A stretch of 32,000 nt of DNA from Marinobacter sp. (GCF_965229515.1 NZ_OZ245884.1), one strand, 5' to 3'; positions 2,707 to 19,858 are shown, numbered from the stretch's first letter. Notes: generated from the sequence alone by a model not told the origin. Made by a program: numbers and translations.

Positions 2707-2724
2707 AAGGTTGGCACCGGTGGC

Positions 2725-4234: not shown

Positions 4235-5428
4235 TCAGGCTGCTACTGGCCGCCGCTCGGGCAACAACACCGACAGCAACGCTGCCATGGCCACCAGGCC
4301 CGACGATATCCACAAGCAGGCCTCCAGCCCCCAGGCCTGATAGACCCAGCCAGAGAGAATTGTGCCCAGTAACCGGCCGGCGGCATTGGACATATAATAG
4401 AAGCCCACATCCAGCGACACGCCATCGCCACGGGCATAGCTAACGATGAGATAGCTGTGGAGCGACGAGTTGACGGCAAACAGCACGCCAAACAACAGCA
4501 GACCACCGACAATCACGATCTGGGGTGACCAACCGACCGACAGACCAATGGCAATTGCTGCCGGAATCAGTGCCAGGGCTGCCGCCCAAAGTACAGCAGG
4601 CTGTTTTCTTTCCATGTTTCCGGTAATGCGCGGGGCAATGGTCTGGATAAAGCCATAGCCGATAATCCAGGTGGCCATGAATCCGCCCACTTTCCAGAAG
4701 TCCCAGCCAAAAACCGTATGCAGGTAGACCGGCAGCGCAACAACAAACCAGACATCCCGAGCCCCGAACAGGAACATTCTCGCCGCAGAAAGCACGTTGA
4801 TGGCCCGGCTCTTGGACAGGATTTCGCGAAACTTCGGCTTTGCCTTGCTCTTGCCCAGATCCTGCCCCAACAGGAAAAGGCTGGCCAGCCACACCACACT
4901 CAGGGCTACCGCCATGATAACGACCGCGCCTTGGAAACCAGCGGCCATCAGCAGGACACCACCGAGGAAAAAGCCCACACCCTTCAGGGTATTCTTGGAG
5001 CCAGTGAGTATGGCCACCCATTTGTACAGGGTCCCCTGCTGCTCATCCGGTACCAGCAGTTTGATGCCGCTCTTGGCGGACATCTTGTTCAGGTCCTTGG
5101 CAATACCGGACAGCGCCTGGGCTGCCATCACCCAGGGCACGGTCAGCATGGCCGCCGGCACCGCCAGCATGGCAAGGGCAGCAATTTGCAGGAACAGCCC
5201 GATGTTCATGGTGCGGTTCAGTCCCATGCGAGCGCCCAGATAGCCACCCACCAGGTTGGTCACCACCCCGAAAAACTCGTAGAAAATGAACAGCAGGGCG
5301 ATTTCCAGCGGCGAATAGCCAAGCTGATGGAAATGCAGCACCACCAGCATCCGCAGGGCTCCGTCCGTCAGGGTGAAGGCCCAGTAGTTGCCGGTGATGA
5401 CCAGGTACTGTCGGATGGCCGCGGACAT
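4235..5428 (-). CDS. arsJ: MFS transporter, ArsJ-type organoarsenical efflux permease
   Basis: 397 aa MFS protein (MSAAIRQYLVITGNYWAFTLTDGALRMLVVLHFHQLGYSPLEIALLFIFYEFFGVVTN...). Its ATG at 5428 sits one base after the stop of an ars-linked GAPDH gene, the gapdh-arsJ pairing known from ars islands. Confidence 0.8.
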   Translation of the reverse strand: MSAAIRQYLVITGNYWAFTLTDGALRMLVVLHFHQLGYSPLEIALLFIFYEFFGVVTNLVGGYLGARMGLNRTMNIGLFLQIAALAMLAVPAAMLTVPWVMAAQALSGIAKDLNKMSAKSGIKLLVPDEQQGTLYKWVAILTGSKNTLKGVGFFLGGVLLMAAGFQGAVVIMAVALSVVWLASLFLLGQDLGKSKAKPKFREILSKSRAINVLSAARMFLFGARDVWFVVALPVYLHTVFGWDFWKVGGFMATWIIGYGFIQTIAPRITGNMERKQPAVLWAAALALIPAAIAIGLSVGWSPQIVIVGGLLLFGVLFAVNSSLHSYLIVSYARGDGVSLDVGFYYMSNAAGRLLGTILSGWVYQAWGLEACLWISSGLVAMAALLSVLLPERRPVAA

Positions 5429-8042: not shown

Positions 8043-9110
8043 ATGAGCGCCCATACGGAAGTGACTAACGAAGACACCAGCGGTGGCATGGATTTGTTCG
8101 GAAGGTTCCTGTCCATCTGGGTCGCCTTGGCCATCATCGCCGGCGTAACCCTCGGCCAACTGGCGCCCTCGGTACCGGAAACTCTGGCCCGCTTTGAATA
8201 TGCTCAGGTGTCGATCCCTATTGCCATTCTGATCTGGGCCATGATCTTCCCGATGATGGCCCAGATCGACTTCAGCGCGGTGGTGGGCGTGCGCAAGGAA
8301 CCAAAAGGCCTCGCCATCACCACCATCGTGAACTGGCTGATCAAACCGTTCACCATGTTCGCTATTGCCTGGTTTTTCCTGATGGTGGTTTTCGAGCCGC
8401 TGATCGCCCCCCAGTTAGCCAGTGAATATCTGGCCGGAGCAATCCTTCTGGGCGCGGCACCCTGCACCGCCATGGTGTTTGTCTGGAGCTATCTCACTAA
8501 AGGCGATGCCGCCTATACGCTGGTGCAGGTGTCCCTGAACGACATCATCATGCTCTTCGCCTTCGCGCCCGTCGTGGTGTTCCTGCTGGGCATTTCCAAC
8601 ATTCAGGTGCCCTGGGACACGGTGATCCTATCCGTGGTGCTGTACATTATCATCCCGCTGACCGCCGGCTATCTCACGCGCCGCGCCCTGATCTCAAGGC
8701 GGGGACAAGTCTGGTACGACGAGGTGTTCATGAAGCGCCTGGGACCGGTCACCCCGGCAGCATTGATCATCACTCTGGTGCTGCTGTTCGCGTTTCAGGG
8801 CGAAGTCATCCTGAACAATCCGCTGCATATCGTGCTGATTGCCGTGCCGCTGATCCTGCAGACCTTCCTGATCTTTTTCCTGGCTTACGGGTGGGCACGG
8901 CTCTGGAACGTCCGCCACTGCATCGCTGCGCCCGGGGCCATGATTGGTGCCAGTAACTTTTTCGAGCTGGCAGTCGCGGCGGCCATTGCGCTGTTCGGCC
9001 TGCAATCGGGGGCGGCGCTGGCGACCGTAGTGGGCGTTCTGGTAGAAGTGCCTTTGATGCTGGTACTGGTGCGGATTGCCAACAGGACTCGGGGGCGGTT
9101 TCCGGCCTAG
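8043..9110 (+). CDS. acr3: ACR3-family arsenite efflux permease
   Basis: 355 aa polytopic protein (..FGRFLSIWVALAIIAGVTLGQ.., ..LLGAAPCTAMVFVWSYLTKGD..) matching the Acr3/ArsB(BART) family. It lies 10 nt after arsH. Confidence 0.9.
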   Translation: MSAHTEVTNEDTSGGMDLFGRFLSIWVALAIIAGVTLGQLAPSVPETLARFEYAQVSIPIAILIWAMIFPMMAQIDFSAVVGVRKEPKGLAITTIVNWLIKPFTMFAIAWFFLMVVFEPLIAPQLASEYLAGAILLGAAPCTAMVFVWSYLTKGDAAYTLVQVSLNDIIMLFAFAPVVVFLLGISNIQVPWDTVILSVVLYIIIPLTAGYLTRRALISRRGQVWYDEVFMKRLGPVTPAALIITLVLLFAFQGEVILNNPLHIVLIAVPLILQTFLIFFLAYGWARLWNVRHCIAAPGAMIGASNFFELAVAAAIALFGLQSGAALATVVGVLVEVPLMLVLVRIANRTRGRFPA

Positions 9111-9135
9111 TTTGGGCCGCTTAATAGGTCCACTT

Positions 9136-9155
9136 TTAAACAAAAGCGAACATTC
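9136..9155 (+). repeat. left copy of imperfect direct repeat bracketing the AT-rich insert
   Basis: TTAAACAAAAGCGAACATTC at 9136-9155 versus TTAAACAAGAAGCGAACATTC at 15842-15862: identical except one inserted G. Weaker similarity continues about 10 nt further (cgcagcgcctca versus cacgcccctta). Confidence 0.55.
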
Positions 9156-9209
9156 GCAGCGCCTCATATTCTTGGTGTTTTCCGCCCCAGTTGAGCGTTT
9201 GGTTGTTTC

Positions 9210-9795
9210 TCAAGAACCCGGCAAACGATCAAATGGAATAACTGTTCCAGCTCGTCGATCGCCAATAATGTGGGTCTAGATTTCAGCCTTTAGATTATCG
9301 CTGTGGCCGAGGATGCCTGAAACGCTCGGCTATCACTTCCCGATCTAGGCAGCTCAGTGGTATAAGCGTGGCGGAAAAGGATGTCCCGCCACCTGTTTGA
9401 TAATTCCGCTCGCGTTCACGACCTGCCTCAATTGCAGCGCGTATGTTGAACGATGAAGGTGATATCGGCAAGCATAGCGTGTAATGGGGTAAATGCATCG
9501 TGTTTAAGATGGGAATAGATACTGTCAACCAAAGTCTTTCATGACCGGTCCGTACTTCTTATGCAGAGAAGTCTGAGCCGAAGTGAGCCCAAATCCATCG
9601 GCCAGGTCGGACTCATGTACTACTCGTGAATGGGCAATTTGCCGCTCCATGTCCGCTCTCAAGTTGCCTCGCATAAGTGTATGGTGATCTTTTCGGCCCT
9701 TACTTGGACTTGCCCCGGTCCACTAGCTCGATCGGGGCAAGTCTATGTCCGTGCCAGAGCACCGGAGAGCTTCGGCCTTAAGCAGGGTGGCTTCA
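9210..9795 (-). pseudogene. intI: integron integrase (IntI) relic: C-terminal ~195 codons, 5'-truncated, with 4 in-frame stops and 2 frameshifts
   Basis: Minus-strand conceptual translation, * = stop, / = frameshift: ..AEALRCSGTDIDLPRSS*WTGASPSKGRKDHHTLMRGNLRADMERQIAHSRVVHESDLADGFGLTSAQTSLHKKYGPVMKDFG*QYLFPS*TRCIYPITRYACRYHLHRSTYALQLRQVVNASGIIKQVAGHPF/RHAYTTELPRSGSDSRAFQ/GILGHSDNLKAEI*THIIGDRRAGTVIPFDRLPGS*. From memory this parallels IntI1/VchIntIA blocks: GKGxKDR, the IntI-specific insertion ..L.RKYP.A....WQYLFPS, RHHLHES..Q.A...A....GI.K...CHTLRHSFATHLL, G.DIRTVQE.LGHSDV.TT.IYTHVL. Confidence 0.75.
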
Positions 9796-9914
9796 GAATC
9801 TGATAATCATGACTTTAACAACAGTGCACTGTCCCAATATGTATAACTGTACTACCTTTTACAACCTAGAGTGGTACGAAAAACTGGTCAATCGCGGTGT
9901 ATTTGGAGGGAAAA

Positions 9915-10202
9915 ATGGGACGTGCAAAGCATCACCAAATGGAGCAGGAAGGAAAAGTCGACCATGCACTCGCCCTCTGTGTGCAAGTTGGTGCGGCAGA
10001 GGAGTGTGAGTTTCACCCGGGAACTTACTTAGATTCCATGGAGTTTTTTGACTACGAGGAACTGGCTGACAAGATCGTTAATGAGGTTCCCGATGCGATG
10101 GACGGGTTCAACAGTAGGGATGAACTTGTCGAATGTGTCGAAAGTGCTATGGGAATGGCTGGAGATGAATGCGGGTCTTGCGCCAGTTACAGAGACTCCT
10201 GA
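9915..10202 (+). CDS. small acidic hypothetical protein (first cassette ORF)
   Basis: Within ORF 9897..10202. ATG at 9915 is preceded by GGAGGG (9905-9910). 95 aa, MGRAKHHQMEQEGKVDHALALCVQVGAAEECEFHPGTY...GDECGSCASYRDS, very D/E-rich with a C-terminal CxxC. No family recognised. Confidence 0.5.
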   Translation: MGRAKHHQMEQEGKVDHALALCVQVGAAEECEFHPGTYLDSMEFFDYEELADKIVNEVPDAMDGFNSRDELVECVESAMGMAGDECGSCASYRDS

Positions 10203-10318
10203 CGGACAACAGATCTAAAAGCTTGGACATTCAGGTAAATCTTGAAGAAACCGTGAGTGTCTTGTTTGGATTGGAAGTTTGGGTCTTCGCTTCACTTCAA
10301 GTGATGAAGGGGATGCTT

Positions 10319-10489
10319 ATGGAAAATTCGTTCGTAACATCATGCGTTTGGTGCGGTGTGGCGTTTCTGTGCGGCCATGGTGGGACACTTCCAATCCAGC
10401 CGGGAGGTTATCAGTTGCGGAATATTTACCCTGCCAAGAGAAGCGCAGAAGGCTTCGAGTCCCCTCCCTCGCACCAACGTCTTTCGTGA
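10319..10489 (+). CDS. possible 56-aa Cys-rich micro-ORF in the otherwise empty second cassette
   Basis: ATG at 10319 preceded by GAAGGGGA. MENSFVTSCVWCGVAFLCGHGGTLPIQPGGYQLRNIYPAKRSAEGFESPPSHQRLS. It ends 10 nt before an attC-like GCTTAAC. Weak: short, with no recognisable motif. Confidence 0.2.
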   Translation: MENSFVTSCVWCGVAFLCGHGGTLPIQPGGYQLRNIYPAKRSAEGFESPPSHQRLS

Positions 10490-10498
10490 ACGAAGATT

Positions 10499-10598
10499 GC
10501 TTAACCATTGCAAGCACGGCGACAGCTTTTCAATTGCAGCGGCGCCTCCATTCCAAAACCGTGCATGCTGCGGGCGTGATCCTTCTTTGGAGTTCTGA
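10499..10598 (+). repeat. attC-like element (family with conserved core TTTTC..GGCGCC TCC..AAAAC)
   Basis: Starts GCTTAAC (fits RYYYAAC) and ends GTTCTGA, 9 nt before the next ATG. GC-rich relative to neighbouring ORFs. Its core resembles the elements at 12276 and 14090. Confidence 0.4.
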
Positions 10599-10606
10599 GC
10601 AAAATT

Positions 10607-11248
10607 ATGAATTATATTTTGATAGGATTGCAGGTCTTGATTTTGCTTGGAATAGGCAGCCTTTTTCTGTTTAGGAAATACCTATTTTCGTACTCTTCGG
10701 AAAAAGGAAAGAACCTTGCAACAAAGGAAGATATAGGTGACATCACTCGAAAAGTTGAAGACGTAAAAACTGGATACATTACCGAGATTGAGCGTATGAA
10801 AGTTGATCTTTCATTATTGTCGAGGAAAAACAACATCCTCCTTGATGAAAAAATACGTGTTTTCAAGCGGTTGCAAAAAAGACTGGTCGATTTTAAAAAA
10901 TACTGTGAAGCAGCCTTAGGGTCATATGATGATCAAGGAGAGTTACATCCAAATTTGAATGTGTTGGCAGAAGGCATCGACAAAGCAGCTTTACAGCATA
11001 TTACTGCTCTACATCAAATGGTGCAGGAGGACTTTATATTTCTCTCGAAGAAGTCGAGAAGCATTTTAGCTGAGTTGCATCATAATTGTTCCATGATGTG
11101 CAGTATGGAGCTTGCGGTGTTTGGTGAGGAGGCTGGTTCCAAAATGGCAAAAAGCACTATTCCAGTCTATGAATCAGCGATAAGAAATATAGACAGCTGC
11201 TTACAAAGCCTCTACGAGGAGCTGGAATTTCCGTCCAGCGGAGAATAG
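10607..11248 (+). CDS. hypothetical membrane-anchored coiled-coil protein
   Basis: 213 aa. N-terminal hydrophobic helix MNYILIGLQVLILLGIGSLFLF, then K/E/L-rich heptad-like sequence. AT-rich codon usage. Confidence 0.65.
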   Translation: MNYILIGLQVLILLGIGSLFLFRKYLFSYSSEKGKNLATKEDIGDITRKVEDVKTGYITEIERMKVDLSLLSRKNNILLDEKIRVFKRLQKRLVDFKKYCEAALGSYDDQGELHPNLNVLAEGIDKAALQHITALHQMVQEDFIFLSKKSRSILAELHHNCSMMCSMELAVFGEEAGSKMAKSTIPVYESAIRNIDSCLQSLYEELEFPSSGE

Positions 11249-11314
11249 AAACGAGGCGCTGCTCGGAACAAAGCTACGCTGCGCTTCGGTTCGCCCCAGA
11301 GCGCGGCGTTAAAA
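11246..11314 (+). repeat. attC-like recombination site candidate (best-formed example)
   Basis: TAGAAAC (stop codon plus AAC) at 11246-11252 ... GTTAAAA at 11308-11314. Between them GAGGCGCTGCTCGGAACAAAGC pairs imperfectly, with bulged bases, against GCTTCGGTTCGCCCCAGAGCGCGGC around an 8-nt loop TACGCTGC. Length 69 bp. Confidence 0.5.
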
Positions 11315-11327
11315 ATCAGGAAAAACT

Positions 11328-12281
11328 ATGGCAAGACCTTCAATTCCAGCAGAGATTAGGAGAGCCGTTTTGGTCGAAGCCGGCCACCGTTGTGCTATTC
11401 CTCGATGTGGTGAAACAGAGCTTGATGTGCACCACATCGTTCCCTGGGAAGCTTGCAAAAAGCATGAGTATTCAAACTTGATTGCGCTCTGTCCGATCTG
11501 CCATCGCAGAGCTCATAAAGGTGAGATTGATCGTAAGGCTTTGCTTCAATACAAAGCTGCACTCACCGCAGGTAGTGGGCCAGGAATGCAAGCGAATTTT
11601 GAGGCGCCAATTGTTGAGATTCGGCGGCGAATATTTGAAAGGAACACGGACGTGCCAGGTTTTACATTCCAGTTCGACTTTCCGGACTTTGAAGGTCTAG
11701 TACAACGCATTGTTTCTAAAAATGTAGAGGCGTGGGGATATGAGCTTTTGGCGGATTTCAGGCATCATCAGGAAACAGTCATGCCTGTTAAAGATGAAGG
11801 CAATCCAGATACCGAGAGTTTTTATAAAGTCCCTAGTAGTTTGCGTGGCAGTTACCAAATAATTCGTAATGATGATGTGGTTATCAGTCTGGAGTACACA
11901 CTAGATAGGTTTTTCACCGGCTCTGCGCACGGTGGCCGTAATACGCGCGTTCAGAATTTCTTGATCAGCCCTTTTCAACCTATAACCGCTAGGGATCTTC
12001 TCGCTGAAAACTCGTCGCTAGGTGACCTTTCAGAATTGGTTCGAAGCAGACTGCTATCGAATCGACAATATAGTGAAAATTGGGTTATCAAAGGCACTGA
12101 GCCAAAAGGCGATAATTTTTCCAACTTTGTTTTAGAAAAAAACGGTATCCAGTTTATTTTTGATGAGTATCAAATTGACTGCTACGCCGCTGGAAGGCAA
12201 AAGCTTTGGATAGGTTATGACCAGTTTGCAGGTATTGGGAATCACTCATTGTTCTCGAAGCTAGCGGGCAATGATTTTTAA
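11328..12281 (+). CDS. HNH endonuclease domain fused to a DUF3298/RsiV-like domain
   Basis: 317 aa, RBS AGGAAA. N-terminus CAIPRCGETELDVHHIVPWEACKKHEYSNLIALCPICHRRAH has the Cys4 HNH pattern. The C-terminal part has ISLEYTLDRFFTGSAHGGRNTRVQNFLISPFQPITARDLL and GIQFIFDEYQIDCYAAGRQKLWIGYDQF, which match my memory of the DUF3298 signature (y.ytGGAHg....n.d..tGk.l.l.dlf ... f.F..Yei.pYa.G). Confidence 0.8.
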   Translation: MARPSIPAEIRRAVLVEAGHRCAIPRCGETELDVHHIVPWEACKKHEYSNLIALCPICHRRAHKGEIDRKALLQYKAALTAGSGPGMQANFEAPIVEIRRRIFERNTDVPGFTFQFDFPDFEGLVQRIVSKNVEAWGYELLADFRHHQETVMPVKDEGNPDTESFYKVPSSLRGSYQIIRNDDVVISLEYTLDRFFTGSAHGGRNTRVQNFLISPFQPITARDLLAENSSLGDLSELVRSRLLSNRQYSENWVIKGTEPKGDNFSNFVLEKNGIQFIFDEYQIDCYAAGRQKLWIGYDQFAGIGNHSLFSKLAGNDF

Positions 12282-12373
12282 CTAGGTGGTGCAGCGGACC
12301 GCTTTTCGGCGCGGTGCGCCTCCAAAACGGCCGTCGATCCCAGGCGCTAGAAAACTACTGGACAGTGTTACAA
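12276..12373 (+). repeat. attC-like element (conserved-core family)
   Basis: TTTTAAC (contains stop TAA) at 12276-12282 ... GTTACAA at 12367-12373; the reverse complement of the first, GTTAAAA, matches it 6/7. The next ATG abuts at 12374. Core hairpin TTTT-C-GGCGC-GGT-GCGCC-TCC-AAAA. Confidence 0.4.
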
Positions 12374-13153
12374 ATGAAAAACCACCTAGAATCTCAAGGC
12401 ACCGGCCTGTTAATGGGGATAAACGCGTTCGAACCATACATCTATAAGATGCATCAAGATTTCGACGCTGGTGCATTTAAGGATTGGCCAACAGTGGTTC
12501 TCGCCACAACTTTGCAAGCATCCGCGGTTTCTTTATTCAAAGTATTGCCTCCTGTGGATAACCCATCGGAGATGTTAGATAAACGCTCTATTGCAAGTCT
12601 TGTGCGCAATCTCGTGGATACGCATGATGTGGTAGAGATGCTTGTCACATCAAACAGTGAAGAAGAGTGGACTCTTCACCGAGATATTCTTGGCCTATAT
12701 ATCAGCAGCAGAATCCATAAGGTACAAAATTTAATAACACCCGAAGAGGCTCAAAAATTATTTCCGCATACCAAAAGTTGGTACTGGAATCGAATTAGAT
12801 CATCTTCGTTGTTCAACAAAAAAATGTCGCGATTAAAAGACGGTGAACAAATTTTTTATAGAAGCCGCAGAGAGCGAGTTGAACTCGCTTGTGGCGGAAA
12901 TACCGATTTTGTTCTTGCTGTTCTTACTGATCTATCTTCTTTCGTGCACTCCCTACCTGTACAAATATGGTTTGGTGACGAGAAAAAACTCTATAACAAT
13001 ACCAAGAAAAACCAAGATATGGTTGCGGTCTGGCTGCGGGTTGCCAATTTCTACTTAGCCCGTAGCTTTGGAAAAATTATGGCGTGCGCGTCCTACAAAG
13101 TAAGCAAAGAAATGAATCAATTTACTAACCGTTTTCAGTCAGCCTTTGACTGA
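12374..13153 (+). CDS. hypothetical protein (probably all-alpha), no motif recognised
   Basis: The ORF track starts at GTG 12314, inside the GC-rich attC-like element. I prefer ATG 12374, giving 259 aa (MKNHLESQGTGLLMGINAFEPYIYKMHQDF...). AT-rich. Confidence 0.6.
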   Translation: MKNHLESQGTGLLMGINAFEPYIYKMHQDFDAGAFKDWPTVVLATTLQASAVSLFKVLPPVDNPSEMLDKRSIASLVRNLVDTHDVVEMLVTSNSEEEWTLHRDILGLYISSRIHKVQNLITPEEAQKLFPHTKSWYWNRIRSSSLFNKKMSRLKDGEQIFYRSRRERVELACGGNTDFVLAVLTDLSSFVHSLPVQIWFGDEKKLYNNTKKNQDMVAVWLRVANFYLARSFGKIMACASYKVSKEMNQFTNRFQSAFD

Positions 13154-13217
13154 ACGTGTTATAGCCGCGCGCAGGGAAGGTCGCTCCTATCTCGCCTTTC
13201 CGCTGAAAGTGTTAACT
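13149..13217 (+). repeat. attC-like recombination site candidate
   Basis: ACTGAAC (contains stop TGA) ... GTTAACT. Internal CAGGGAAGG pairs with CCTTtCCgCTG, leaving two bulged bases. Length 69 bp. The outer arms pair poorly (see finding on the local direct repeat). Confidence 0.4.
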
Positions 13218-13237
13218 TTTTTAAAACTAGGTGAGAG

Positions 13238-14095
13238 ATGGACTGGAAAGAATACGAAAAGGAGATTTTCGAGCATTTTAAGGGGCAGTACCCTGCTGCC
13301 GAAATCACGTTGGATGCTCGGAAAACAGGACTATATTCAAAGACTGAGCGCCAAATTGACATTTTGATTGAGCAGTATGTAGCGGGAAACCGAATCGTTA
13401 TCGCTATTGACGGGAAATACCTAAATAAGAAGGTCGATGTTAAAGCAGTCGAAAGTTATATAGGCATGCTGGAGGACATTGGAGCCCACAAAGGGTTGCT
13501 AGTTTCGAAAGAGGGTTTTTCGGAGACAGCATACAACAGAGCGCATTTCGGGCCTACCGAGATTGAATTAGACATCCTTAACTTCGAAGAACTTAAACGC
13601 TTCCAAGCGTATGGTGCGATCCCCTATGCTGGTGATTGCGGTGCTTTAATTCCTGCTCCATTAGGCTGGGTTGTCGACATTCAAACCACACCAGCTTGGC
13701 TGGCGACGCTCTATCAGCAAGGCCGCACGTTAGACGAAGCCATGAAAGATGCTGAATTCATGTACGTTCACTTTTGGAATCGACGAAAGGACGGCCATGA
13801 TCTAGAGGATTTGCTGAAGCTTCAAAAGGAAAATCTGCTGAAAGTCGATCAGGAATGCGTGATTGATTTTATACCAACGATCAAACGAAAAGACGCAGAA
13901 ACGAAGCTTCGGGTTGCTTATGTAAGTCAATATCCATCGCCAGAATACACGGGCTTTGTACAATTTACGGATTTTATTTTCTTCTGTGTCCTGTTCTCTC
14001 CAGAAAATAGGTTGAAAAGCAATATCCGGAAGTTAGAAAACATCATGGAAGCAGTGAAACCAATAAAAATTAAGCGTCATAAAGTTAACCAGTAA
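13238..14095 (+). CDS. restriction-endonuclease-like (Mrr_cat / PD-(D/E)xK) N-domain protein with unknown C-terminal domain
   Basis: 285 aa, RBS AGGTGAGAG. EKEIFEHFKGQYP...ERQIDILIEQYVAGNRIVIAIDGKYLNKKVDVKAVESYIGMLEDIGAHKGLLVSKEGFSETA follows the Mrr-type pattern: D...(D/E)xK core, then a ..G..(V/T)(S/T)..GF(S/T)..A tail. The remaining ~170 aa are unrecognised. Confidence 0.75.
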   Translation: MDWKEYEKEIFEHFKGQYPAAEITLDARKTGLYSKTERQIDILIEQYVAGNRIVIAIDGKYLNKKVDVKAVESYIGMLEDIGAHKGLLVSKEGFSETAYNRAHFGPTEIELDILNFEELKRFQAYGAIPYAGDCGALIPAPLGWVVDIQTTPAWLATLYQQGRTLDEAMKDAEFMYVHFWNRRKDGHDLEDLLKLQKENLLKVDQECVIDFIPTIKRKDAETKLRVAYVSQYPSPEYTGFVQFTDFIFFCVLFSPENRLKSNIRKLENIMEAVKPIKIKRHKVNQ

Positions 14096-14172
14096 CTACA
14101 GTCAGACTAGTTTTCCGGCGCATTTGTGCCTCCAAATTGGCCACTGCGCACAGCATTAAGCCCTTGTAATTT
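14090..14172 (+). repeat. attC-like element (conserved-core family), degenerate right core
   Basis: CAGTAAC (contains stop TAA) ... core TTTTCCGGCGCATTTGTGCCTCCAAATTGGCC ... ATTAAGC / GTAATTT instead of a clean GTT core. Confidence 0.35.
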
Positions 14173-14194
14173 AAGATAGAACGGAGACAACTAA

Positions 14195-15739
14195 TTGGGA
14201 TTTCCAAGGAAGATTAAAGATCAAATACTTGCGGATACTGCAAGGCATTGTTGCGTCTGCCACCGGTATAAGGGCGTTAAAGTAGAAGTTCATCACATTG
14301 AGCAGGAGGCCTTAGGCGGCTCAAACAAATATGAAAATGCCATAGCGCTTTGTTTCGATTGCCATGCTGATGCTGGTCATTACAACCCTAAACACCCTAG
14401 AGGAACCAAGTTCTCACCTGGAGAACTGAAAAAAGCAAAGGCGCAGTGGTTAGAGATCGTACGCACGAACAACATCAAAGTGCCATCTGAGCCCGATTCG
14501 TTTTTATGTCAATATTTTGTTTGCGAAAATTATGAAAATCTTGAAGAAATAGCAAAAGGTGACCTTTCTAAATTTCCTGTCAACAAGCCTCTTTTGATAA
14601 AAAATGAAATAATTCAATGTCTTGAAAAAGTCATTCAAAATCATCCGGAATCATACAGGCATGCTAATGCGTGGGGTGAGCGCTATAAAAGCAAAAAGGA
14701 CTATTTAGATCGGCATCCTGATGCTGTAGTGACAAAGGAAGGTCAGGATGAGTATTCATATTTTGAAGTTGTGAGAACCCCAACAATTGAGGAATTAAAA
14801 AAGTACTCTGAAAAAGATGGTTTGCTGAATCTAATGCTAAAAGCTGGGATGCCCATTGATAATGTATCAGCCATTATTGGATGCTATGAAAATGCATGCG
14901 GGGGAATCGAGTTTCAGGAAGAATACATATTTAGGAAGCTCTGGTGCTCTTTTGCAGCTATTACGAATATTTCTGACCAGCCCTTAGCGTTAGATTCTAT
15001 TGATGCACAGAATCAGGTTTATGATGGTTTTACTAAATTTGATCAGCCGGTCGATTCTCTTGAGAATATCCCCTTGCCAAAGATGCCTATACAGGCTGGA
15101 GCAACAGTCTTATTCCCAATGGCTTTGTTGCTTCCGCCTCTACACTCACTATCGAGACAAAAATGGTCATCATCTAGCAGCGGGGGTTGGGAAGAACAAG
15201 TGCAGATAGTTTCGCACGGAAATATAACAGAAAATAATGTGAGTGAAGTTTATACGTTCGGCGGAAAAAAGCTTCCGGAAAAACTGCATTTTATAAAGAA
15301 TGGAAATAGGGTTTCTCAGGAGTTCCATACATTTGATTTATCAAATATGTATTCTATAGATCGTCATTGGCAATGTGGATCTTGTCCTCATCTATTCTTT
15401 GTTAGCGACAAGGTCGTATATGTTAAAGAACTCTTATCGCACTGTGAAAACAAGAAAGGTGAAGAAAGGTTTTTTGTTCCTGAAGATGTGCGTGCCGTAA
15501 TAATTGCTGAGATAGAGGACGAGACTACAGAACTTCACTCCATTATAGTGGACAAGACTGTATATGCTTCCAACATAACTCTTGAAAAATCTCAGCACAT
15601 TGAAATACCGGTTAGTGGGGGATCTGAAATAACAGTAACTGGCAAGTACATCCCCTATGGAAAATCTAATAGATTCATCCCTCAAGGAATTAAAAGGAAT
15701 GACCTCGTTGGCGAGTTTTTATTCCTGACGAAAGAATAG
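14195..15739 (+). CDS. HNH endonuclease N-domain protein with ~430-aa unknown C-terminal region
   Basis: 514 aa. The start must be TTG at 14195: an in-frame TAA lies immediately upstream, GGAGA is 7 nt upstream, and the next Met is far past the HNH motif. CCVCHRYKGVKVEVHHIEQEALGGSNKYENAIALCFDCHADAGHY is paralogous to the HNH module of the 11328 gene. The remainder has no recognised motif. Confidence 0.75.
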   Translation: MGFPRKIKDQILADTARHCCVCHRYKGVKVEVHHIEQEALGGSNKYENAIALCFDCHADAGHYNPKHPRGTKFSPGELKKAKAQWLEIVRTNNIKVPSEPDSFLCQYFVCENYENLEEIAKGDLSKFPVNKPLLIKNEIIQCLEKVIQNHPESYRHANAWGERYKSKKDYLDRHPDAVVTKEGQDEYSYFEVVRTPTIEELKKYSEKDGLLNLMLKAGMPIDNVSAIIGCYENACGGIEFQEEYIFRKLWCSFAAITNISDQPLALDSIDAQNQVYDGFTKFDQPVDSLENIPLPKMPIQAGATVLFPMALLLPPLHSLSRQKWSSSSSGGWEEQVQIVSHGNITENNVSEVYTFGGKKLPEKLHFIKNGNRVSQEFHTFDLSNMYSIDRHWQCGSCPHLFFVSDKVVYVKELLSHCENKKGEERFFVPEDVRAVIIAEIEDETTELHSIIVDKTVYASNITLEKSQHIEIPVSGGSEITVTGKYIPYGKSNRFIPQGIKRNDLVGEFLFLTKE

Positions 15740-15820
15740 CCCAACAAGTCAAAGCACTCAGACGCAAACGCCGGCGGTGTTTGCGGCCTTTTCGTACCAT
15801 CTGAATGTCCGCTTTGCGAC
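15739..15820 (+). repeat. terminal attC-like element lacking a right GTT core
   Basis: Perfect RYYYAAC (GCCCAAC, 15739-15745) overlaps stop TAG. AAGTCAAAGCACTCAGA pairs with TCTGAaTGtccGCTTTGcGAC (15800-20). Central hairpin CGCAAACGCC-GGC-GGTGTTTGCG (15763-85). The expected GTTGGGC is replaced by CAATCCGG. Confidence 0.4.
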
Positions 15821-15841
15821 CAATCCGGCCACCATCTCCTC

Positions 15842-15862
15842 TTAAACAAGAAGCGAACATTC
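15842..15862 (+). repeat. right copy of imperfect direct repeat bracketing the AT-rich insert
   Basis: TTAAACAAGAAGCGAACATTC; see 9136-9155. Confidence 0.55.
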
Positions 15863-16181
15863 ACGCCCCTTAACCCGAGGGGCGGTTGCTGGTCGCCCAA
15901 GATCGATGAATTTTCCAAAATCCAAGTTTCGCCGTGGTTTCAAAGCAGACCTTTTTCAGTTGCACCGGTGAATCGTGGGGACGCTCATCCAGCCTGTGAA
16001 GGCTTTTAAATCATTGGTTAGAGCCTGCCGATCTCAGGTGCTCAGGGTGAGGAGAGGAACAGATTTATTTCGAGGTAGCACTTTAAGTTAGCTCAATAGC
16101 AGCTAAGCTGAATATTGAGTTGCCGGAAGCTCGGTCAACGTATCCATAATGCAGCAATCAACAACAATAGAGGACAGCATC

Positions 16182-16253
16182 ATGTGGACCAAACCAGCTT
16201 ATGAGGATCTTCGCATTGGCTTCGAAGTCACCATGTATTTTTCCAATCGTTAA
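16182..16253 (+). CDS. pqqA: PQQ precursor peptide PqqA
   Basis: Below the ORF-track size cut-off. ATG 16182: [23 protein letters not shown]. 23 aa with the conserved E-x3-Y (EVTMY) crosslink pair. RBS-like AGAGGA upstream. Confidence 0.9.
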
Positions 16254-16279
16254 GGCCTGAAACAAAACGGCCAGTTTGA

Positions 16280-16894
16280 ACACGCTGGCCGGCTCGGACC
16301 CTGCGGGATATCGGTATCAGTGCGGTGATGCTGTTTGACAGCCAAGTCGACCACACCACCGGCCTGCTGATGCTTCGCGAAGGCATGCCTCTGGAGGTAT
16401 GGTGTACGACTCAGGTGCACGAAGATCTGACCAGTGGTTTTCCCCTTTTTAGTATGCTGAAACATTGGAACGGTGGTCCACGTTGGCACGAGGTACCGGC
16501 CACAGACGAGACTGCATTTAGTATCCCATGCGCCACCGTACTCTCCCCGACGCAATAAGCCGCATCCTGGCGATAATATCGGCCTTTTCATCGAGGACAC
16601 CCGCAATGGTGCGACGGCACTCTATGCCCCCGGACTCGGCAAACCTGACGCGAACATCCTGGCCTGGATGGCCAGGGCCGATACTCTGCTGGTGGACGGC
16701 ACCGTGTGGCAGGATGACGAGATGCAGCGCTGTGAAGTGGGCACCCGTACCGGGCAGCAAATGGGGCACCTGGCGCAAAGTGGTCCCGGCGGCATGATTG
16801 AGGTGCTTGATGGCCTGACTGCGACGCGGAAAATTTTAATCCACATTAACAACACCAATCCGATCTTGGATGAGTCCTCAGAAGAGCGGGCTAT
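16280..16894 (+). pseudogene. pqqB: pqqB remnant: N-terminal ~60 codons missing, internal ~40-nt deletion, 3' end deleted
   Basis: Frame 1 opens after TGA at 16277: ..[67 protein letters not shown]. It switches frame at about 16529 directly into [23 protein letters not shown]...[60 protein letters not shown]. The start-proximal segment is absent; only about 26 nt separate the pqqA stop from this frame. Confidence 0.8.
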
Positions 16895-17125
16895 TCCTAT
16901 TTCAGAAAGCGGTTGTCCGAGGCCCGTCGAGATGTTGAGCATGGACTTACGATTACGTTGGGCTTCTTTCAGACTGCTGATCAGCAGGATCGGGCGCTGG
17001 AAATACTTCAATTCAAACTGGACATACTCTGGACAATCCTGGACGCACTGACCATGGCCTATCGTCACGGTACTCCGCCCTATCATACGGTCACCGACCA
17101 GCCTGTATGGCACCGAGGTTTGTAA
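16895..17125 (+). pseudogene. pqqC: pqqC remnant: only the C-terminal ~75 codons
   Basis: [67 protein letters not shown].. is a typical PqqC C-terminus. It is fused out of frame to the pqqB remnant at about 16892. The TAATG overlap with pqqD is retained. Confidence 0.8.
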
Positions 17126-17418
17126 TGAGCGACGTGGTCAAACCGCATCTTGTCCCCAAGTTCAGAGTTGGTTTCCGTTTTCAGTGGGAGCCGGCCCAAA
17201 ATGCATACGTGCTGCTTTATCCGGAGGGGATGGTCCGGCTGAATGGCAGTGCGGGAGCCATCTTGAGCGAGGTGGATGCTAAAAGGCCCGTCGCTGAGAT
17301 GATCGAACGCCTGGAAGAAAACTTCCCGGATGCCGGGTCGCTGTCCGATGACGTGATGGCCTTTCTTATGGAAGCCCGGGACAACGGCTGGATTTTGCCA
17401 ACACCCAAAAAGAGCTGA
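17125..17418 (+). CDS. pqqD: PQQ biosynthesis peptide chaperone PqqD (apparently intact)
   Basis: Within ORF 17107..17418; ATG 17125 overlaps the pqqC stop. [88 protein letters not shown] matches PqqD over full length. Confidence 0.85.
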
Positions 17419-17423
17419 GCACT

Positions 17424-17969
17424 CAGGAGTGGGTAAGGGTGCTGCATCTGGCCTCTGTCTGACCAAAGCTAAAGTAGATGGCTTTTTGAAAGCAGGATTG
17501 GATCATATCCAAGTCAGCTTTCAGGCGTCCGATCCCGAGCTGAATAACGCCGTGGCCGGTTCCCGCAAGGCGTTCGAGCAAAAGTTGGCTATGGCGCGGG
17601 CGGTGAAGGAAGCGGGTTACCCCATGGTGCTGAACTTCGTCATCCATCGCCATAATATTCATCAGATGAATGACATCATTGACCTCTGCTACCGCTTGGA
17701 TGCTGACTACGTCGAGTTGGCCACCTGTCAGTATTATGGCTCGGGTGGTCTGTTTCTGACGGTTGCTCCAGATGGCACGGCACTGCCGTGCCACAGCGCG
17801 CGGCTACTGCCGATTGATTTTCCCAATGTGCGTGAGTCCGGCCTGCAGTAAATCGTCGCACCACGATCGTATTCCGGCAGCCCGGCGTGCTGCAGATCAT
17901 GCAACGACACGGCTGGAGGAATTGACCTATCGCAACACGGAGAACTCACGGCTCTTCTTCCGCGGCTGA
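17424..17969 (+). pseudogene. pqqE: pqqE (radical SAM) remnant with at least four internal deletions; CX3CX2C region lost
   Basis: Fragments in three frames: [11 protein letters not shown] / [97 protein letters not shown]-[gap][29 protein letters not shown] / ..[10 protein letters not shown]...LTYRNTENSR. About 550 nt remain where PqqE normally needs about 1.1 kb. Confidence 0.8.
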
Positions 17970-18568: not shown

Positions 18569-19858
18569 TTACTCTGCGGTAAATCGGTGAATCTGACCCT
18601 CATCAACAGCGGCATAGAGAGAACCGTCTGGTCCCATCACCAGGCCTCGGAAACGGGCGGGGCCAGCAGATAGCGGCATTTCGATATTATCCATGATGGT
18701 CGGGCCCCATGGATGCAAGTCAATGACATTAATGCGCTGACCCACCGGCGTATCCCCAAAGCCAATACCGAGGAAGCTGACAACCAGGCGGCCGTGCCAG
18801 TCACCCCACTGTTCACCCTCCAGAAAAGCCGCGCTGCTGATGCCCTGCGAATAATTGTTATTGGTCCACAGTGGCCTCATCGCGTCCGGATAGGTTTCAT
18901 AATCGGTCATAGGCATATATTTCCGTCTTTCATCAGGGTCCATGCCTTCGTTCTGGTTTGGCTCATAGCCGCAGTAATCGTCAGGGCAGTCGCCCCGTCC
19001 CGCCATATTGGGCCGAGGATCCCAGCCACTGTTTCCACCGGGCACAAGGGCATTGAGTTCATCGGTATGCCATGGGCCATGCTCGGTAATGATTGGTTGG
19101 TGCGTTTGTGGGTGAAATGCGACGCCCTGAACATTGCGGTGGCCGTAAGTGAAAATTCGAGCATCGAATCCATCCGGTGTCGCATCGGCGTTCACCGGAG
19201 CTGCGTTGCCGTCGCGGTCGATACGTAGAACCTTGGAGCCAAGGTTGTCTCCAAATTGCGGCAGACTACTGTTGTGGTTGTCGCCCGTGGGGACATAGAG
19301 GAAACCATCACCCGGATTGAAGCGAATTCGTCCACCATTATGAGCCCCGGCATCACCAAATGGGTGATCCGTAGGAGCCTGTTTATAGGGAATTTTCTCT
19401 ACAATGTCGTTTCGGTTCGACACGCTGGAGAGGTCGCCGCTGACCTTCAATCGAATCACCCGGTTTGTGGCTGGGCTGTCACCCATACGGGAGGCGGAAT
19501 AAACAAAAATTGTATTGTTAGTGTCGAAGTCCGGATCAAGAACAACACCATTCATGCCCGCTTGTCCATTACAGAACAAATCGGCGGCGGTCATCGAGTA
19601 GCCATCGGTACCGCTCATGCCGAGCAGGCTATTGACTGTTCCATCTGGAAGCCTGACAGAAAGGCCTTTGCATTTTTCCGTGAAGAACATAGTCCCATTA
19701 GGCAGGAATGCCATGTCCCAGGGACTTTCGAGTCCGTCCATAAACACGGCTTGGCTGACCTGAGGCGTTTGTGCCTGAAGGCTGAGCGGCAAACTTAGCA
19801 AAACGGCTGAGGCTGTCGCGACACTGAAAGAGCGAAGGTATGACGTCTTATTCATCAT
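18569..19858 (-). CDS. soluble PQQ-dependent sugar (aldose/sorbosone) dehydrogenase, GSDH/YliI family
   Basis: 429 aa with signal peptide. GHRNVQGVAFHP...ITEHGP..DELN....GGNSGWP-type blocks are characteristic of the beta-propeller glucose/sorbosone dehydrogenase family. Confidence 0.85.
   Translation of the reverse strand: MMNKTSYLRSFSVATASAVLLSLPLSLQAQTPQVSQAVFMDGLESPWDMAFLPNGTMFFTEKCKGLSVRLPDGTVNSLLGMSGTDGYSMTAADLFCNGQAGMNGVVLDPDFDTNNTIFVYSASRMGDSPATNRVIRLKVSGDLSSVSNRNDIVEKIPYKQAPTDHPFGDAGAHNGGRIRFNPGDGFLYVPTGDNHNSSLPQFGDNLGSKVLRIDRDGNAAPVNADATPDGFDARIFTYGHRNVQGVAFHPQTHQPIITEHGPWHTDELNALVPGGNSGWDPRPNMAGRGDCPDDYCGYEPNQNEGMDPDERRKYMPMTDYETYPDAMRPLWTNNNYSQGISSAAFLEGEQWGDWHGRLVVSFLGIGFGDTPVGQRINVIDLHPWGPTIMDNIEMPLSAGPARFRGLVMGPDGSLYAAVDEGQIHRFTAE

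What the first reader, a model, noticed from the sequence alone, without database searches (positions are those of the whole stretch)
9210..15820. Decayed chromosomal integron: intI relic heading a same-strand array of AT-rich single-gene cassettes
Three independent observations converge. (1) The minus strand at 9210-9795 translates, despite stops and frameshifts, into the C-terminal half of an integron integrase. This includes the IntI-specific extra segment (..SLHKKYGPVMKDFG[W]QYLFPS..) that separates IntI from other tyrosine recombinases. (2) Every ORF to its right (9915-15739) is on the opposite strand and is much AT-richer than the flanks. (3) Each ORF is followed by a GC-richer 69-100 bp imperfect palindrome that begins ..AAC on its stop codon (TAGAAAC, TTTTAAC, ACTGAAC, CAGTAAC, GCCCAAC, GCTTAAC) and mostly ends GTT(A).. 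just before the next start (GTTAAAA, GTTACAA, GTTAACT, GTTCTGA). That is the layout of attC R''...R' cores. The integron sits between an arsenic-resistance cluster and a dying pqq operon.
Basis: partly seen in the sequence, partly recalled or inferred. Interest (0 to 1): 0.7.

Follow-up and report, generated by a model that had tools for sequence, protein, structure and literature searches.

The report
Dead integron with fossil gene cassettes
This is the wreck of a bacterial gene-capture device (an integron) in a Marinobacter chromosome: its recombinase gene and all six recombination sites are mutated beyond use, but the six captured genes, three of them predicted nucleases, are still kept intact. 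This kind of decay is already known in other bacteria.

Summary
Minus strand 9213-9773 is the C-terminal 185 codons of an integron integrase. It matches TIGR02249 at E=1e-32, and its best solved relative is VchIntIA. It carries four in-frame stops, one replacing the catalytic Tyr, and a frameshifted stretch. The N-terminal 137 codons and attI are gone.

To its right lie six same-strand, AT-rich ORFs (39-51% GC). Each is followed by a GC-richer element (48-61%).

Five of these elements are shown to be attC relics: four by similarity to genuine Marinobacter attCs, and A1, A4 and A5 by orthologous cassettes elsewhere. The ORF2, ORF5 and ORF6 cassettes occur individually in Shewanella, M. adhaerens and a metagenome contig with intact attCs. 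Homology starts and stops at the G|TT crossover points.

None of the elements is still a working site. An attC covariance model built from relatives scores orthologous sites at 25-33 bits and finds nothing here. Four of six R' triplets are mutated (GTG, GCT, ATT, CTT).

The ORFs are under purifying selection (dN/dS 0.22).

The whole 6.69-kb module (9136-15821) is 98.8% identical to one in M. salarius. Flanking DNA is only 90-94% identical. The module's ends are copies of a genus-wide palindromic repeat.

It is a new member of a known kind.

The parts
9136..9155 (+). Left end of the shared 6.69-kb block. It is the 'R-half' (TTAAACA + arm AAAGCGAACATTC) of a Marinobacter-wide palindromic repeat. 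With the preceding TAGGTCCACTTT it forms a short hairpin site that is also present downstream of acr3 in relatives lacking the block.
   Evidence: Block homology to L011-L018 starts at 9136. Homology to the acr3 flank of M. salarius runs on to 9156-9162, so the junction lies inside this repeat. The same half-site lies about 56 nt downstream of intact intI in L001-L008.
9213..9773 (-). intI relic: the C-terminal 185 codons of an integron integrase. It has four in-frame stops (one replaces the catalytic Tyr, ..AEI*THI..) and a stretch of about 22 codons out of frame. The N-terminal 137 codons are absent.
   Evidence: The alignment to the M. salarius copy has no gaps, so the frameshifts are shared. 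The relic has 1.9 substitutions per 100 nt, close to dS.
9774..9914 (.). Unassigned 141 nt where the 5' half of intI, Pc and attI should be. No recognisable attI.
   Evidence: There is no significant local alignment to attI regions of L003, L010, L153 or L160. There is no sigma-70-like promoter on the + strand here.
9915..10202 (+). ORF1, 95 aa, lambda ea8.5-like domain. It belongs to cassette 1, together with a 296-nt stretch (10203-10498) that evolves neutrally.
   Evidence: PF20735 at E=1.3e-5. The exact protein is on record (WP_421911538.1). ORF1 has 0 substitutions against M. salarius, whereas 10203-10606 has 2.0 per 100 nt.
10499..10582 (+). A0: full-length attC relic of cassette 1. R'' is GCTTAAC at 10499-10505. 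R' is GTGATCC, with GTG in place of GTT at 10576-10578.
   Evidence: It aligns over its whole length to genuine attC b5 of L010 (z=27 against 300 shuffles). It is 82% identical to an attC in L003. The orthologous cassette start in Shewanella reads GGCGTTATCTCTCTTTGGAGTTCTGA, against GGCGTGATCCTTCTTTGGAGTTCTGA here.
10607..11248 (+). ORF2, 213 aa: an N-terminal transmembrane helix plus a helical bundle. Function unknown. A widespread integron cassette gene.
   Evidence: Window 10573-11312 matches Shewanella indica L148 5967-6709 at 86.5%. A 69% homologue lies between attCs in the V. vulnificus array, with different neighbours in two strains. There are 175 homologues across Gamma-, Beta-, Delta- and Epsilonproteobacteria. 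The AF2 model has pLDDT 84.6 and no PDB match at E<=0.001.
11246..11314 (+). A1: attC relic of cassette 2. R'' has eroded from GATAAC to AGAAAC (a 3-nt deletion). R' is still GTTAAAA (GTT at 11308-11310).
   Evidence: The orthologous Shewanella attC scores 26.2 bits and folds as a canonical hairpin. The window copy scores at most 6.9 bits and does not. z=8.7 against family attC a2.
11328..12281 (+). ORF3, 317 aa: an N-terminal HNH nuclease domain plus PdaC-like/DUF3298 domains.
   Evidence: PF01844 at 4e-10 and PF11738 at 2.5e-9. A 53% homologue is a cassette between model-positive attCs in metagenome contig L166.
12276..12352 (+). A2: attC relic of cassette 3. R'' is TTTTAAC. R' is GCTAGAA, with GCT in place of GTT at 12346-12348. 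The window copy lacks 5 nt (AGCGG, after 12292) that the other copies have.
   Evidence: z=8.6 against family attC a8. It is 88% identical over 41 nt to the M. adhaerens attC at L160 6863-6905. The indel is shown.
12374..13153 (+). ORF4, 259 aa (279 aa from the GTG at 12314). No recognisable domain.
   Evidence: The exact protein is on record, and the gene is conserved in all block copies.
13149..13217 (+). A3: presumed attC remnant of cassette 4. Only the R' end is validated (GTT at 13211-13213). The body has no detectable similarity to known attCs.
   Evidence: The ORF5 cassette of M. adhaerens begins TTAGCTCTAAAAAATTAGG, against TTAACTTTTTTAAAACTAGG here, which places the crossover at 13211|13212. 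z=0.7 against family attCs.
13238..14095 (+). ORF5, 285 aa: an N-terminal Mrr/PD-(D/E)xK nuclease domain plus a C-terminal PsbP/DcrB-like domain.
   Evidence: PF04471 at 3e-7. The AF2 model has pLDDT 86.7. Foldseek matches PsbP (3e-6) and the type IV restriction enzymes MspJI (1.5e-4) and AspBHI. Window 13223-14158 matches M. adhaerens L160 5986-6920 at 88%.
14083..14161 (+). A4: attC relic of cassette 5. R'' is AGTTAAC at 14083-14089, inside the end of ORF5. R' is ATTAAGC, with ATT in place of GTT at 14155-14157.
   Evidence: The orthologous M. adhaerens attC (L160 6846-6923) scores 25.2 bits and ends GGCGTTATG, where the window has AGCATTAAG. z=5.7 against family attC b1. The ORF6 cassette homology starts at 14156.
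14195..15739 (+). ORF6, 514 aa: an N-terminal HNH nuclease domain plus about 450 aa of unknown fold.
   Evidence: PF01844 at 8e-7. Window 14156-15790 matches L153 5962-7599 at 90.5%. There the gene stands alone as the first cassette at an attI-like site, beside a type ISP restriction enzyme gene.
15739..15794 (+). A5: attC relic of cassette 6. R'' is GCCCAAC. There are three small deletions. R' is CTT in place of GTT at 15788-15790. The surviving central hairpin plus a T-run now looks like an intrinsic terminator (15763-15785).
   Evidence: The orthologous attC in L153 (7545-7603) scores 32.8 bits and folds at -16.1 kcal/mol with an 8-bp R box. The window copy folds at -7.1 kcal/mol with no R box.
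15803..15862 (+). Palindromic repeat at the distal end of the array. The L-half GAATGTCCGCTTTGCGACC (15803-15821) is the right end of the shared block. It is followed by a 20-nt spacer and an R-like half, TTAAACAAGAAGCGAACATTC (15842-15862).
   Evidence: Block homology ends at 15821 in every copy, with at least four different sequences following. The same L-spacer-R element ends the arrays in L003 and L160.

Best explanation
Window 9136-15821 is a fossil integron.

Shown:
- It began as a Marinobacter-type chromosomal integron with intI, attI and at least six cassettes.
- A deletion removed the 5' 137 codons of intI along with Pc and attI. The remaining intI accumulated stops and frameshifts.
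- Every attC site lost the features needed to fold and be cleaved. Four of the six have lost the invariant GTT of the R' box.

Inferred:
- The cassettes can no longer be excised, shuffled or added to. They now behave as ordinary fixed genes.
- Their products include two HNH-domain proteins and one Mrr-type nuclease, each fused to a sensor-like domain. They most likely act as stand-alone nucleases against foreign DNA (anti-phage or anti-plasmid defence).

Shown: the six ORFs are maintained by purifying selection.

Shown: the dead module is shared as one block with M. salarius at far higher identity than the surrounding chromosome. In this genome it sits in a different place, between acr3 and pqqA. 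Its two ends are copies of a dispersed palindromic repeat.

Inferred: it arrived here already dead, by lateral transfer and recombination at those repeats.
For: intI relic.

Closest intact relatives are 322-aa Marinobacter IntI proteins, whose loci carry shuffling cassette arrays with canonical attCs. The attC family structure has covariation support: 76% of positions paired against 31-41% in slid controls.

The model built from 14 of those sites finds at least 22 attCs in relatives. It also finds sites outside the training set in Shewanella, M. adhaerens, L153 and L166 at 15-34 bits. It finds none in the window in either filter mode.

Sequence homology of four elements to genuine attCs gives z=5.7-27.

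Orthologous single cassettes have intact attCs and homology boundaries at G|TT. This holds for ORF2, ORF5 and ORF6. The ORF3 family is a cassette in L166.

dN/dS is 0.22 over the six ORFs (26 synonymous, 21 non-synonymous). The relic and the 10203-10606 stretch change at 1.9-2.0 per 100 nt, close to the dS of 2.4%.

The block is 98.8% identical to M. salarius and to metagenome copies. Its ends are identical in all of them, and there are no gaps in the relic. Flanking DNA is 90-94% identical, and M. salarius has dctM...lysR between acr3 and uvrD instead.
Against: IntegronFinder's own attC model could not be run. My model is family-specific, and it missed three of its own 14 training sites in full-length form (compare).

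A3 has no attC similarity beyond its GTT end. ORF4 was never seen as an independent cassette, so ORF4 could be part of a larger unit.

The defence role of the nucleases rests on domain content and weak PADLOC hits only (E about 1e-4).

No promoter for the array was found, so expression is not shown.

The direction and mechanism of the transfer are inferred from identity levels and junction sequences only.
Confidence: 0.92

Rival explanations
1. The array is a still-mobilisable CALIN. intI is dead, but the elements remain usable attC sites, so another integrase in the cell could excise or shuffle the cassettes.
For: A1 and A3 keep the GTT triplet and all six keep AAC. A1 retains a plausible L-box stem with two bulged bases (read directly from the sequence).
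Against: No element reaches even 10 bits with the family attC model, while orthologous intact sites score 25-33 bits. Bottom-strand folds lack the R box. Four R' triplets are mutated. The gene order is invariant in every copy found, in at least four right-hand contexts.
Confidence: 0.05
2. It is an ordinary low-GC defence island or prophage remnant. The recombinase fragment is then a phage or Xer-type integrase, and the inter-ORF elements are terminators or REPs, not attC.
For: It has an ea8.5-like ORF, HNH and Mrr nucleases, and low GC. A5 looks like a terminator. Fold z-scores of the elements are about 0.
Against: The fragment matches integron integrase 24 orders of magnitude better than Xer recombinases, and the match includes the IntI-specific insertion. 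The elements are homologous to attCs of active integrons. The individual genes are found as attC-bounded cassettes elsewhere, with boundaries at G|TT.
Confidence: 0.02
3. The stops and frameshifts are sequencing or assembly errors in an otherwise intact integron.
For: The neighbouring pqq operon is also broken, which might suggest a poor assembly.
Against: The same relic, with a gap-free alignment, occurs in at least eight independent assemblies. 137 codons are simply absent. The ars genes and all six cassette ORFs are intact.
Confidence: 0.01
4. This rival concerns how the block moved. Rather than general recombination at dispersed repeats, a dedicated small tyrosine recombinase (the 204-aa 'int204', found inside the palindrome next to the block in M. 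salarius) exchanges DNA modules between copies of the palindrome. This would resemble Xer-dependent pdif modules.
For: Junctions fall exactly at the inner edges of the repeat halves. The gene for int204 sits between the L and R halves in L011, L012 and L017. Copies 94-97% identical occur in 8 of 120 repeat-bearing loci from different Marinobacter species, where checked 70-88 nt after an L-half.
Against: The window has no int204. An R-half follows int204 in only 1 of the 7 genome-scan int204 loci checked (L067), besides L011/L012/L017. L-halves also lie next to housekeeping genes such as tmcA and argS, so they behave as ordinary dispersed REP-like hairpins. No activity is known.
Confidence: 0.1

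Closest known systems
Inactivated chromosomal integrons of Xanthomonas (Gillings et al. 2005, as summarised in bioRxiv 10.1101/2025.06.18.660453)
   Same: [quoted passage not shown] The cassette array is then frozen and inherited unchanged within a lineage.
   Different: Here the attC sites themselves have also decayed below detection. The module is not at the genus-typical locus. It is shared between species at much higher identity than the flanks.
CALIN (cluster of attC sites lacking an integrase) next to an intI pseudogene: 15 of 279 CALINs in Cury et al. 2016 (PMC4889954)
   Same: A cassette array whose integrase has been lost or pseudogenised.
   Different: A CALIN is defined by attC sites that a model can detect. 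None is detectable here. M. adhaerens L160 is a true CALIN of the same family and shows the earlier stage of decay.
Active Marinobacter chromosomal integron (loci L001-L008, 322-aa IntI P0004)
   Same: It has the same IntI lineage (59% aa identity over the retained half). It has the same attC family, with TAAC..GGCGTTA ends and GCCTCCA-type loops. It has the same palindromic repeat just downstream of intI and at the array end.
   Different: Those loci have an intact intI, an attI (..AATAAGCTG|TTA..), attCs scoring 28-41 bits, and cassette order that differs between samples.
Pseudo-attC next to a defence cassette homologue in Marinobacter sp. CuT6 (bioRxiv 10.1101/2024.07.02.601719)
   Same: A former integron cassette carrying a defence-type gene, outside a working integron, with a degenerate attC.
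   Different: That case is a single cassette. Here a whole array survives together with the integrase relic.

Membership tests
Integron integrase (IntI; TIGR02249) | Tyrosine-recombinase catalytic domain carrying the IntI-specific extra segment (..KYP....W.W.FPS..) | tested here: met
   TIGR02249 at E=1.1e-32 over profile positions 134-315, against 1e-8 for XerD. The segment aligns to VchIntIA (2A3V) residues 136-320.
Integron integrase (IntI; TIGR02249) | Full-length open reading frame with the catalytic tyrosine | tested here: not met
   Only residues 138-322 are present. There are four in-frame stops, one at the catalytic Tyr codon, plus a frameshifted stretch. The score of 113.7 bits is below the curated cut-off of 265.
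Complete (functional) integron | attI site and Pc promoter between intI and the first cassette | tested here: not met
   There is no similarity in 9760-9920 to four attI regions of relatives. There is no promoter-like site on the + strand there.
Complete (functional) integron | At least one attC site recognised by a structure-aware attC model | tested here: not met
   Family covariance model R1 gives no hit at E<=10 with default filters. With filters off it gives only 6-8-bit noise. IntegronFinder's own model was not available.
CALIN | Two or more detectable attC sites without a nearby functional integrase | tested here: not met
   Same searches as above. For contrast, M. adhaerens L160 gives five hits at 23-27 bits.
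Integron gene cassette | A unit made of an ORF plus attC, bounded at G|TT, and found in other arrays with other neighbours | tested here: met
   ORF2: 10573-11312 matches Shewanella L148, and a homologue lies in V. vulnificus arrays. ORF5: 13223-14158 matches M. adhaerens L160. ORF6: 14156-15790 matches L153. ORF3 is met at family level only. ORF1 and ORF4 were not shown.
attC site (functional) | Conserved 5'-AAC (R'') and GTT-3' (R') triplets | tested here: not met
   AAC is present in 6 of 6 elements. GTT is present in only 2 of 6 (A1, A3). The others read GTG, GCT, ATT and CTT.
attC site (functional) | The bottom strand folds into an R box, unpaired spacer and L box, with extrahelical bases | tested here: not met
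   Relatives' sites fold at -14 to -26 kcal/mol with a paired R box. The window elements fold at -6 to -13 kcal/mol without one.
attC site (functional) | Recombination by IntI in vivo | not testable with these tools
   This needs a conjugation or excision assay.
Anti-phage defence system (PADLOC families) | A significant match to a described defence protein family | tested here: inconclusive
   Only weak hits: mREase_IV at 1e-4 for ORF3 and PDC-S02 at 1.5e-4 for ORF5. The ORF5 model resembles the nuclease domains of MspJI and AspBHI.

The most novel reading that the evidence does not exclude
The dead integron is not merely decaying in place. It is one of several DNA modules exchanged between Marinobacter genomes at a genus-specific palindromic site (arm GAATGTYCGCTTT, with 6-nt inner flanks GCGACC and TAAACA). 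The exchange could be catalysed by the small 204-aa tyrosine recombinase that rides inside that palindrome. This would be a module-exchange system analogous to Xer/pdif modules, and it would give integron arrays an afterlife as transferable defence islets. A related, weaker idea is that the R' GTT triplets were knocked out selectively, to lock useful cassettes in place. Changes number 0/18 bases at AAC against 4/18 at GTT, but Fisher p=0.10, so this is not supported.
Probability: 0.1. Interest if true: 0.6.

Novelty: new member of a known kind. Interest (0 to 1): 0.3.

Why it matters
It is a cleanly documented end-stage of integron decay. The integrase and every attC site are dead, yet the captured genes are kept by selection, and the block still moves between species as a unit.

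A locus like this may escape tools such as IntegronFinder, which need either an intact-enough intI or detectable attC sites. That would mean counts of integron-derived genes in genomes are underestimates.

The orthologous pairs of intact and decayed attC (A1, A4, A5) give a small natural data set on how attC sites erode.

The cassette genes are nuclease plus sensor-domain fusions and a widespread membrane protein. They are candidates for single-gene defence functions.

None of this changes current understanding of integrons.

Tried and rejected
That led me to re-delimit them using relatives.
- Rfam found nothing in 8500-17000.
- A MAFFT alignment of full-length attCs failed to anchor the 5' ends. 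I therefore built the model from 46-nt 'mini-attCs' with the variable loop removed.
- Running the model with filters off turned out to be less sensitive than default. The Shewanella attCs were missed and found. I therefore searched the window in both modes.
- A search for an attI remnant in 9760-9920 gave nothing.
- The promoter scan gave fewer sites than shuffles did.
- PADLOC and PHROGs gave only generic HNH or weak hits.
- The ORF2 structure model found no solved relative.
- I tested whether the 259-aa gene in M. adhaerens is ORF4. It is not.
- I tested whether ORF 10169-10489 (106 aa, called as a gene in some contigs) is under selection. With 3 synonymous and 4 non-synonymous changes, the result is uninformative.
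- I considered that the L-half of the palindrome is the target or end of insertion sequences, because 85% of copies lack a nearby R arm. I rejected this because such copies lie beside housekeeping genes and form short hairpins of their own.
- I tested for selective loss of GTT versus AAC. The difference is not significant.
- An exact look-up of the Acr3 protein failed. The organism was identified through other proteins.

Full report
**What is at the coordinates**

The window comes from a Marinobacter sp. chromosome. The record is 4,469,058 bp, and proteins WP_421911534 to WP_421911545 match exactly. GC falls from 55-63% in the flanks to 36-50% between about 9500 and 16000.

On the minus strand, 9213-9773 translates into the C-terminal 185 residues of an integron integrase:
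- It has four in-frame stops and one out-of-frame stretch.
- The stitched peptide matches TIGR02249 (integron integrase) over profile positions 134-315 of 315 at E=1.1e-32. XerC/XerD-type models reach only 1e-8 and cover only the last third.
- The best solved structure is VchIntIA (2A3V, residues 136-320, E=1.3e-19). Its IntI-specific segment aligns with SLHKKYGPVMKDFG*QYLFPS.
- The catalytic tyrosine codon is a stop (..AEI*THI..).
- Nothing corresponding to residues 1-137 exists.
- The 141 nt between the relic and the first ORF show no similarity to the attI regions of four relatives.

**What intact relatives look like**

The nearest full-length proteins are 322-aa Marinobacter IntI proteins, 66-67% identical to the stitched relic. 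Their loci (L001-L008) have these features:
- intI lies beside a MimR-like regulator and a PQQ alcohol dehydrogenase.
- A divergent array of small cassettes includes ccdAB and parE/relB pairs.
- Cassette order differs between samples.
- The attC sites run 5'-YTAAC-MAK ... GGCGTTA-3'.
- Their bottom strands fold at -14 to -26 kcal/mol into the canonical shape: R box, unpaired spacer, then a stem with bulged bases.

On a 46-column alignment of 14 such sites, 76% of pair positions form pairs, against 31-41% when the partners are slid. Covariation is 0.42 against 0.19 in shuffles.

A covariance model built from that alignment (R1) recovers at least 22 full-length attCs in the relatives. It later found sites that were not in its training set, at 15-34 bits. 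These were in Shewanella indica, M. adhaerens, a metagenome contig carrying an ORF6 homologue, and a metagenome array carrying an ORF3 homologue.

**The window's inter-ORF elements**

R1 finds nothing in the window at E<=10 with default filters. With filters off it gives only 6-8-bit noise. Bottom-strand folds of the six elements are weak (-6 to -13 kcal/mol) and lack the R box.

They are nevertheless attC relics by homology. Local alignment to the 14 genuine sites, against 300 shuffles, gives:

| Element | z | Extent or partner |
|---|---|---|
| A0 | 27 | aligned end to end |
| A1 | 8.7 | family attC a2 |
| A2 | 8.6 | family attC a8 |
| A4 | 5.7 | family attC b1 |
| A3 | 0.7 | none |
| A5 | 0.8 | none |

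**Orthologous cassettes settle the matter**

- ORF2: window 10573-11312 matches Shewanella indica L148 5967-6709 at 86.5%. The match starts at the preceding site's crossover (GGCG|TTATCTC.. there, GGCG|TGATCC.. here). It ends at the cassette's own GGCGTTA. The Shewanella attC scores 26.2 bits and folds canonically. A1 has lost 3 nt of R'' and several stem pairs. A 69% homologue of ORF2 sits between V. vulnificus-type attCs, with different neighbours in two strains.
- ORF5: window 13223-14158 matches M. adhaerens L160 5986-6920 at 88%. The orthologous attC scores 25.2 bits and ends GGCGTTATG, where the window has AGCATTAAG. The same comparison places the preceding crossover at 13211|13212.
- ORF6: window 14156-15790 matches L153 5962-7599 at 90.5%. 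There the gene is the first cassette at an attI-like AATAATAAGCTG|TTAGG. Its attC scores 32.8 bits and folds at -16.1 kcal/mol. A5 has three small deletions and CTT for GTT. The surviving hairpin plus a T-run now resembles a terminator.
- ORF3: a 53% homologue is a cassette between model-positive attCs in contig L166.

The R' triplets are therefore GTG, GTT, GCT, GTT, ATT and CTT. All six R'' AAC triplets survive. The asymmetry is not significant (Fisher p=0.10).

**The genes**

- ORF1 is ea8.5-like.
- ORF3 is HNH plus PdaC/DUF3298.
- ORF5 has an Mrr-type nuclease domain.
- ORF6 is HNH plus about 450 aa of unknown fold.
- ORF2 and ORF4 have no family.

The ORF5 model (pLDDT 86.7) joins a nuclease domain resembling those of the modification-dependent enzymes MspJI and AspBHI to a PsbP/DcrB-like domain. 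ORF2 (pLDDT 84.6) is a membrane-anchored helical bundle with no solved relative. PADLOC gives only weak hits.

Against the M. salarius copy, the six ORFs show 26 synonymous and 21 non-synonymous changes (dN/dS 0.22). The intI relic and the 10203-10606 stretch change at 1.9-2.0 per 100 nt, close to the dS of 2.4%. So the genes are maintained and the integron machinery is not. The defence role is my inference. It rests on domain architecture, on the published finding that integron cassettes encode defence systems (bioRxiv 10.1101/2024.07.02.601719), and on ORF6's neighbours in L153.

**The module as a whole**

Window 9136-15821 is 98.8% identical to M. salarius GCA_053566135.1 and to at least seven metagenome contigs. 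There are 76-77 substitutions and one 5-nt indel. The end points are the same in every copy. Those other copies differ from each other by 0-1 substitutions. The relic aligns without gaps, so the decay predates the split.

In M. salarius the block sits at the genus-typical integron locus. In the window it lies between acr3 and pqqA. Other M. salarius genomes have dctM-NMT1-fumarase-lysR between acr3 and uvrD instead. The shared flanks are only 90-94% identical. I infer that the block arrived here by lateral transfer after it had died.

**The ends of the block**

Both ends are halves of a palindromic repeat: GAATGTYCGCTTT-GCGACC ... TAAACA-AAAGCGAACATTC.
- The same repeat lies downstream of intact intI and at the array end in relatives.
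- It also lies downstream of acr3 in genomes without the block. There the left junction falls inside the shared 20-27 nt.
- The L-half occurs in at least 120 stretches, mostly in Marinobacter.
- Only 20 of 135 copies have the R arm within 120 nt.
- Copies also lie next to housekeeping genes.

I therefore treat it as a dispersed REP-like hairpin at which recombination joined the block to its new neighbours. A 204-aa Xer-like recombinase gene sits inside this palindrome next to the block in M. salarius. It recurs at 94-97% identity in eight other loci. Whether it acts on the repeat is unknown.

**Comparison with what is known**

Inactivation of intI with frozen arrays is well described in Xanthomonas. 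CALINs next to intI pseudogenes were catalogued by Cury et al.. A pseudo-attC beside a cassette-derived defence gene has been noted in another Marinobacter.

This locus is a further and more advanced example. It fails the tests for a functional integron, for a CALIN and for functional attC sites. It passes those for an IntI-derived pseudogene and for genuine cassettes.

**Verdict**

Its details on the 3' ends and on palindromic quality needed correction. The finding is a new member of a known kind, of modest interest.

Noticed in passing
window 9123-9155 and 15803-15862; also L003 2940-2981 and 11025-11082, L160 about 2836-2859 and about 8240-8290, L023 about 11815-11845: A Marinobacter-wide palindromic repeat: arm GAATGTYCGCTTT, inner 6-mers GCGACC and TAAACA, and a variable loop. 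It brackets integron platforms in several lineages and marks the exact ends of the shared 6.69-kb block. The L-half is present in at least 120 stretches of GTDB genomes. 85% of copies have no R arm nearby.
   Followed up: partly
L012 7098-7712 (also L011, L017, L150; L031, L067, L074, L087, L109, L113): A 204-aa Xer-like tyrosine recombinase gene with no N-terminal SAM-like domain. In M. salarius it lies between the L and R halves of the palindrome, right next to the dead integron. Copies 94-97% identical occur in different Marinobacter species, where checked 70-88 nt after an L-half. It may be a small mobile unit that targets the palindrome.
   Followed up: partly
window 16182-17851 and 18569-19858: The pqq operon is decaying: pqqA and pqqD are intact, pqqB is split and lacks its first 82 codons, pqqC is reduced to 63 codons, and pqqE is a fragment. 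A PQQ-dependent glucose/sorbosone dehydrogenase gene and a cytochrome c gene just downstream are intact. The GSDH protein has no 90%-identity relative in the protein collection.
   Followed up: partly
window 2691-4244: A 1.55-kb segment encodes a UPF0014 membrane protein and an ABC ATPase. M. salarius genomes have a 134-aa 4HBT thioesterase gene at roughly this position, between the phosphate-binding-protein gene and the ars cluster, and blastn homology is interrupted over only about 30 nt there. The window therefore appears to carry an insertion or replacement.
   Followed up: no
L160 2836-8290 (M. adhaerens CP159479.1): An integrase-less array with an attI-like junction (..TAATTGCTG|TTAGG) and five model-positive attCs, bounded by the same palindromic repeat. 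It is a true CALIN of the same family and represents an intermediate stage of decay.
   Followed up: partly
L153 5440-6000: An integron platform in which intI has been deleted outright. An R-half-like repeat (AAACAAAAGCGTACATTC) now lies about 400 nt from the attI-like site. That site carries the ORF6 cassette with an intact attC, and a type ISP restriction enzyme gene and a resolvase gene lie alongside.
   Followed up: no
window 12292 (element A2): The window lacks 5 nt (AGCGG, one unit of a short direct repeat) that are present in all other copies of the block. In those copies gene callers extend ORF4 upstream through the attC relic (289-290 aa instead of 259 aa).
   Followed up: no
L009 81-2094; L010 9536-10468: Other independent ways of killing intI occur in the genus. 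In M. nauticus an IS (rve transposase) truncates it to 189 aa. In Marinobacter sp. ANT_B65 it is split into 153-aa and 155-aa ORFs while a cassette array with good attCs remains.
   Followed up: partly
tool behaviour, vs 71: The covariance-model search with filters 'off' missed attC sites in L148 that the default filters found at 16-29 bits. This is probably because the long variable loop is handled through local ends. Negative results from 'off' mode alone should not be trusted for this kind of model.
   Followed up: yes
L023 13345-13423: A weak attC-model hit (17.7 bits, E=0.44) lies among small same-strand ORFs just downstream of acr3 in Marinobacter GCA_040223475.1. A cassette-like insertion may therefore also occur at the acr3-proximal palindrome in another strain.
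   Followed up: no
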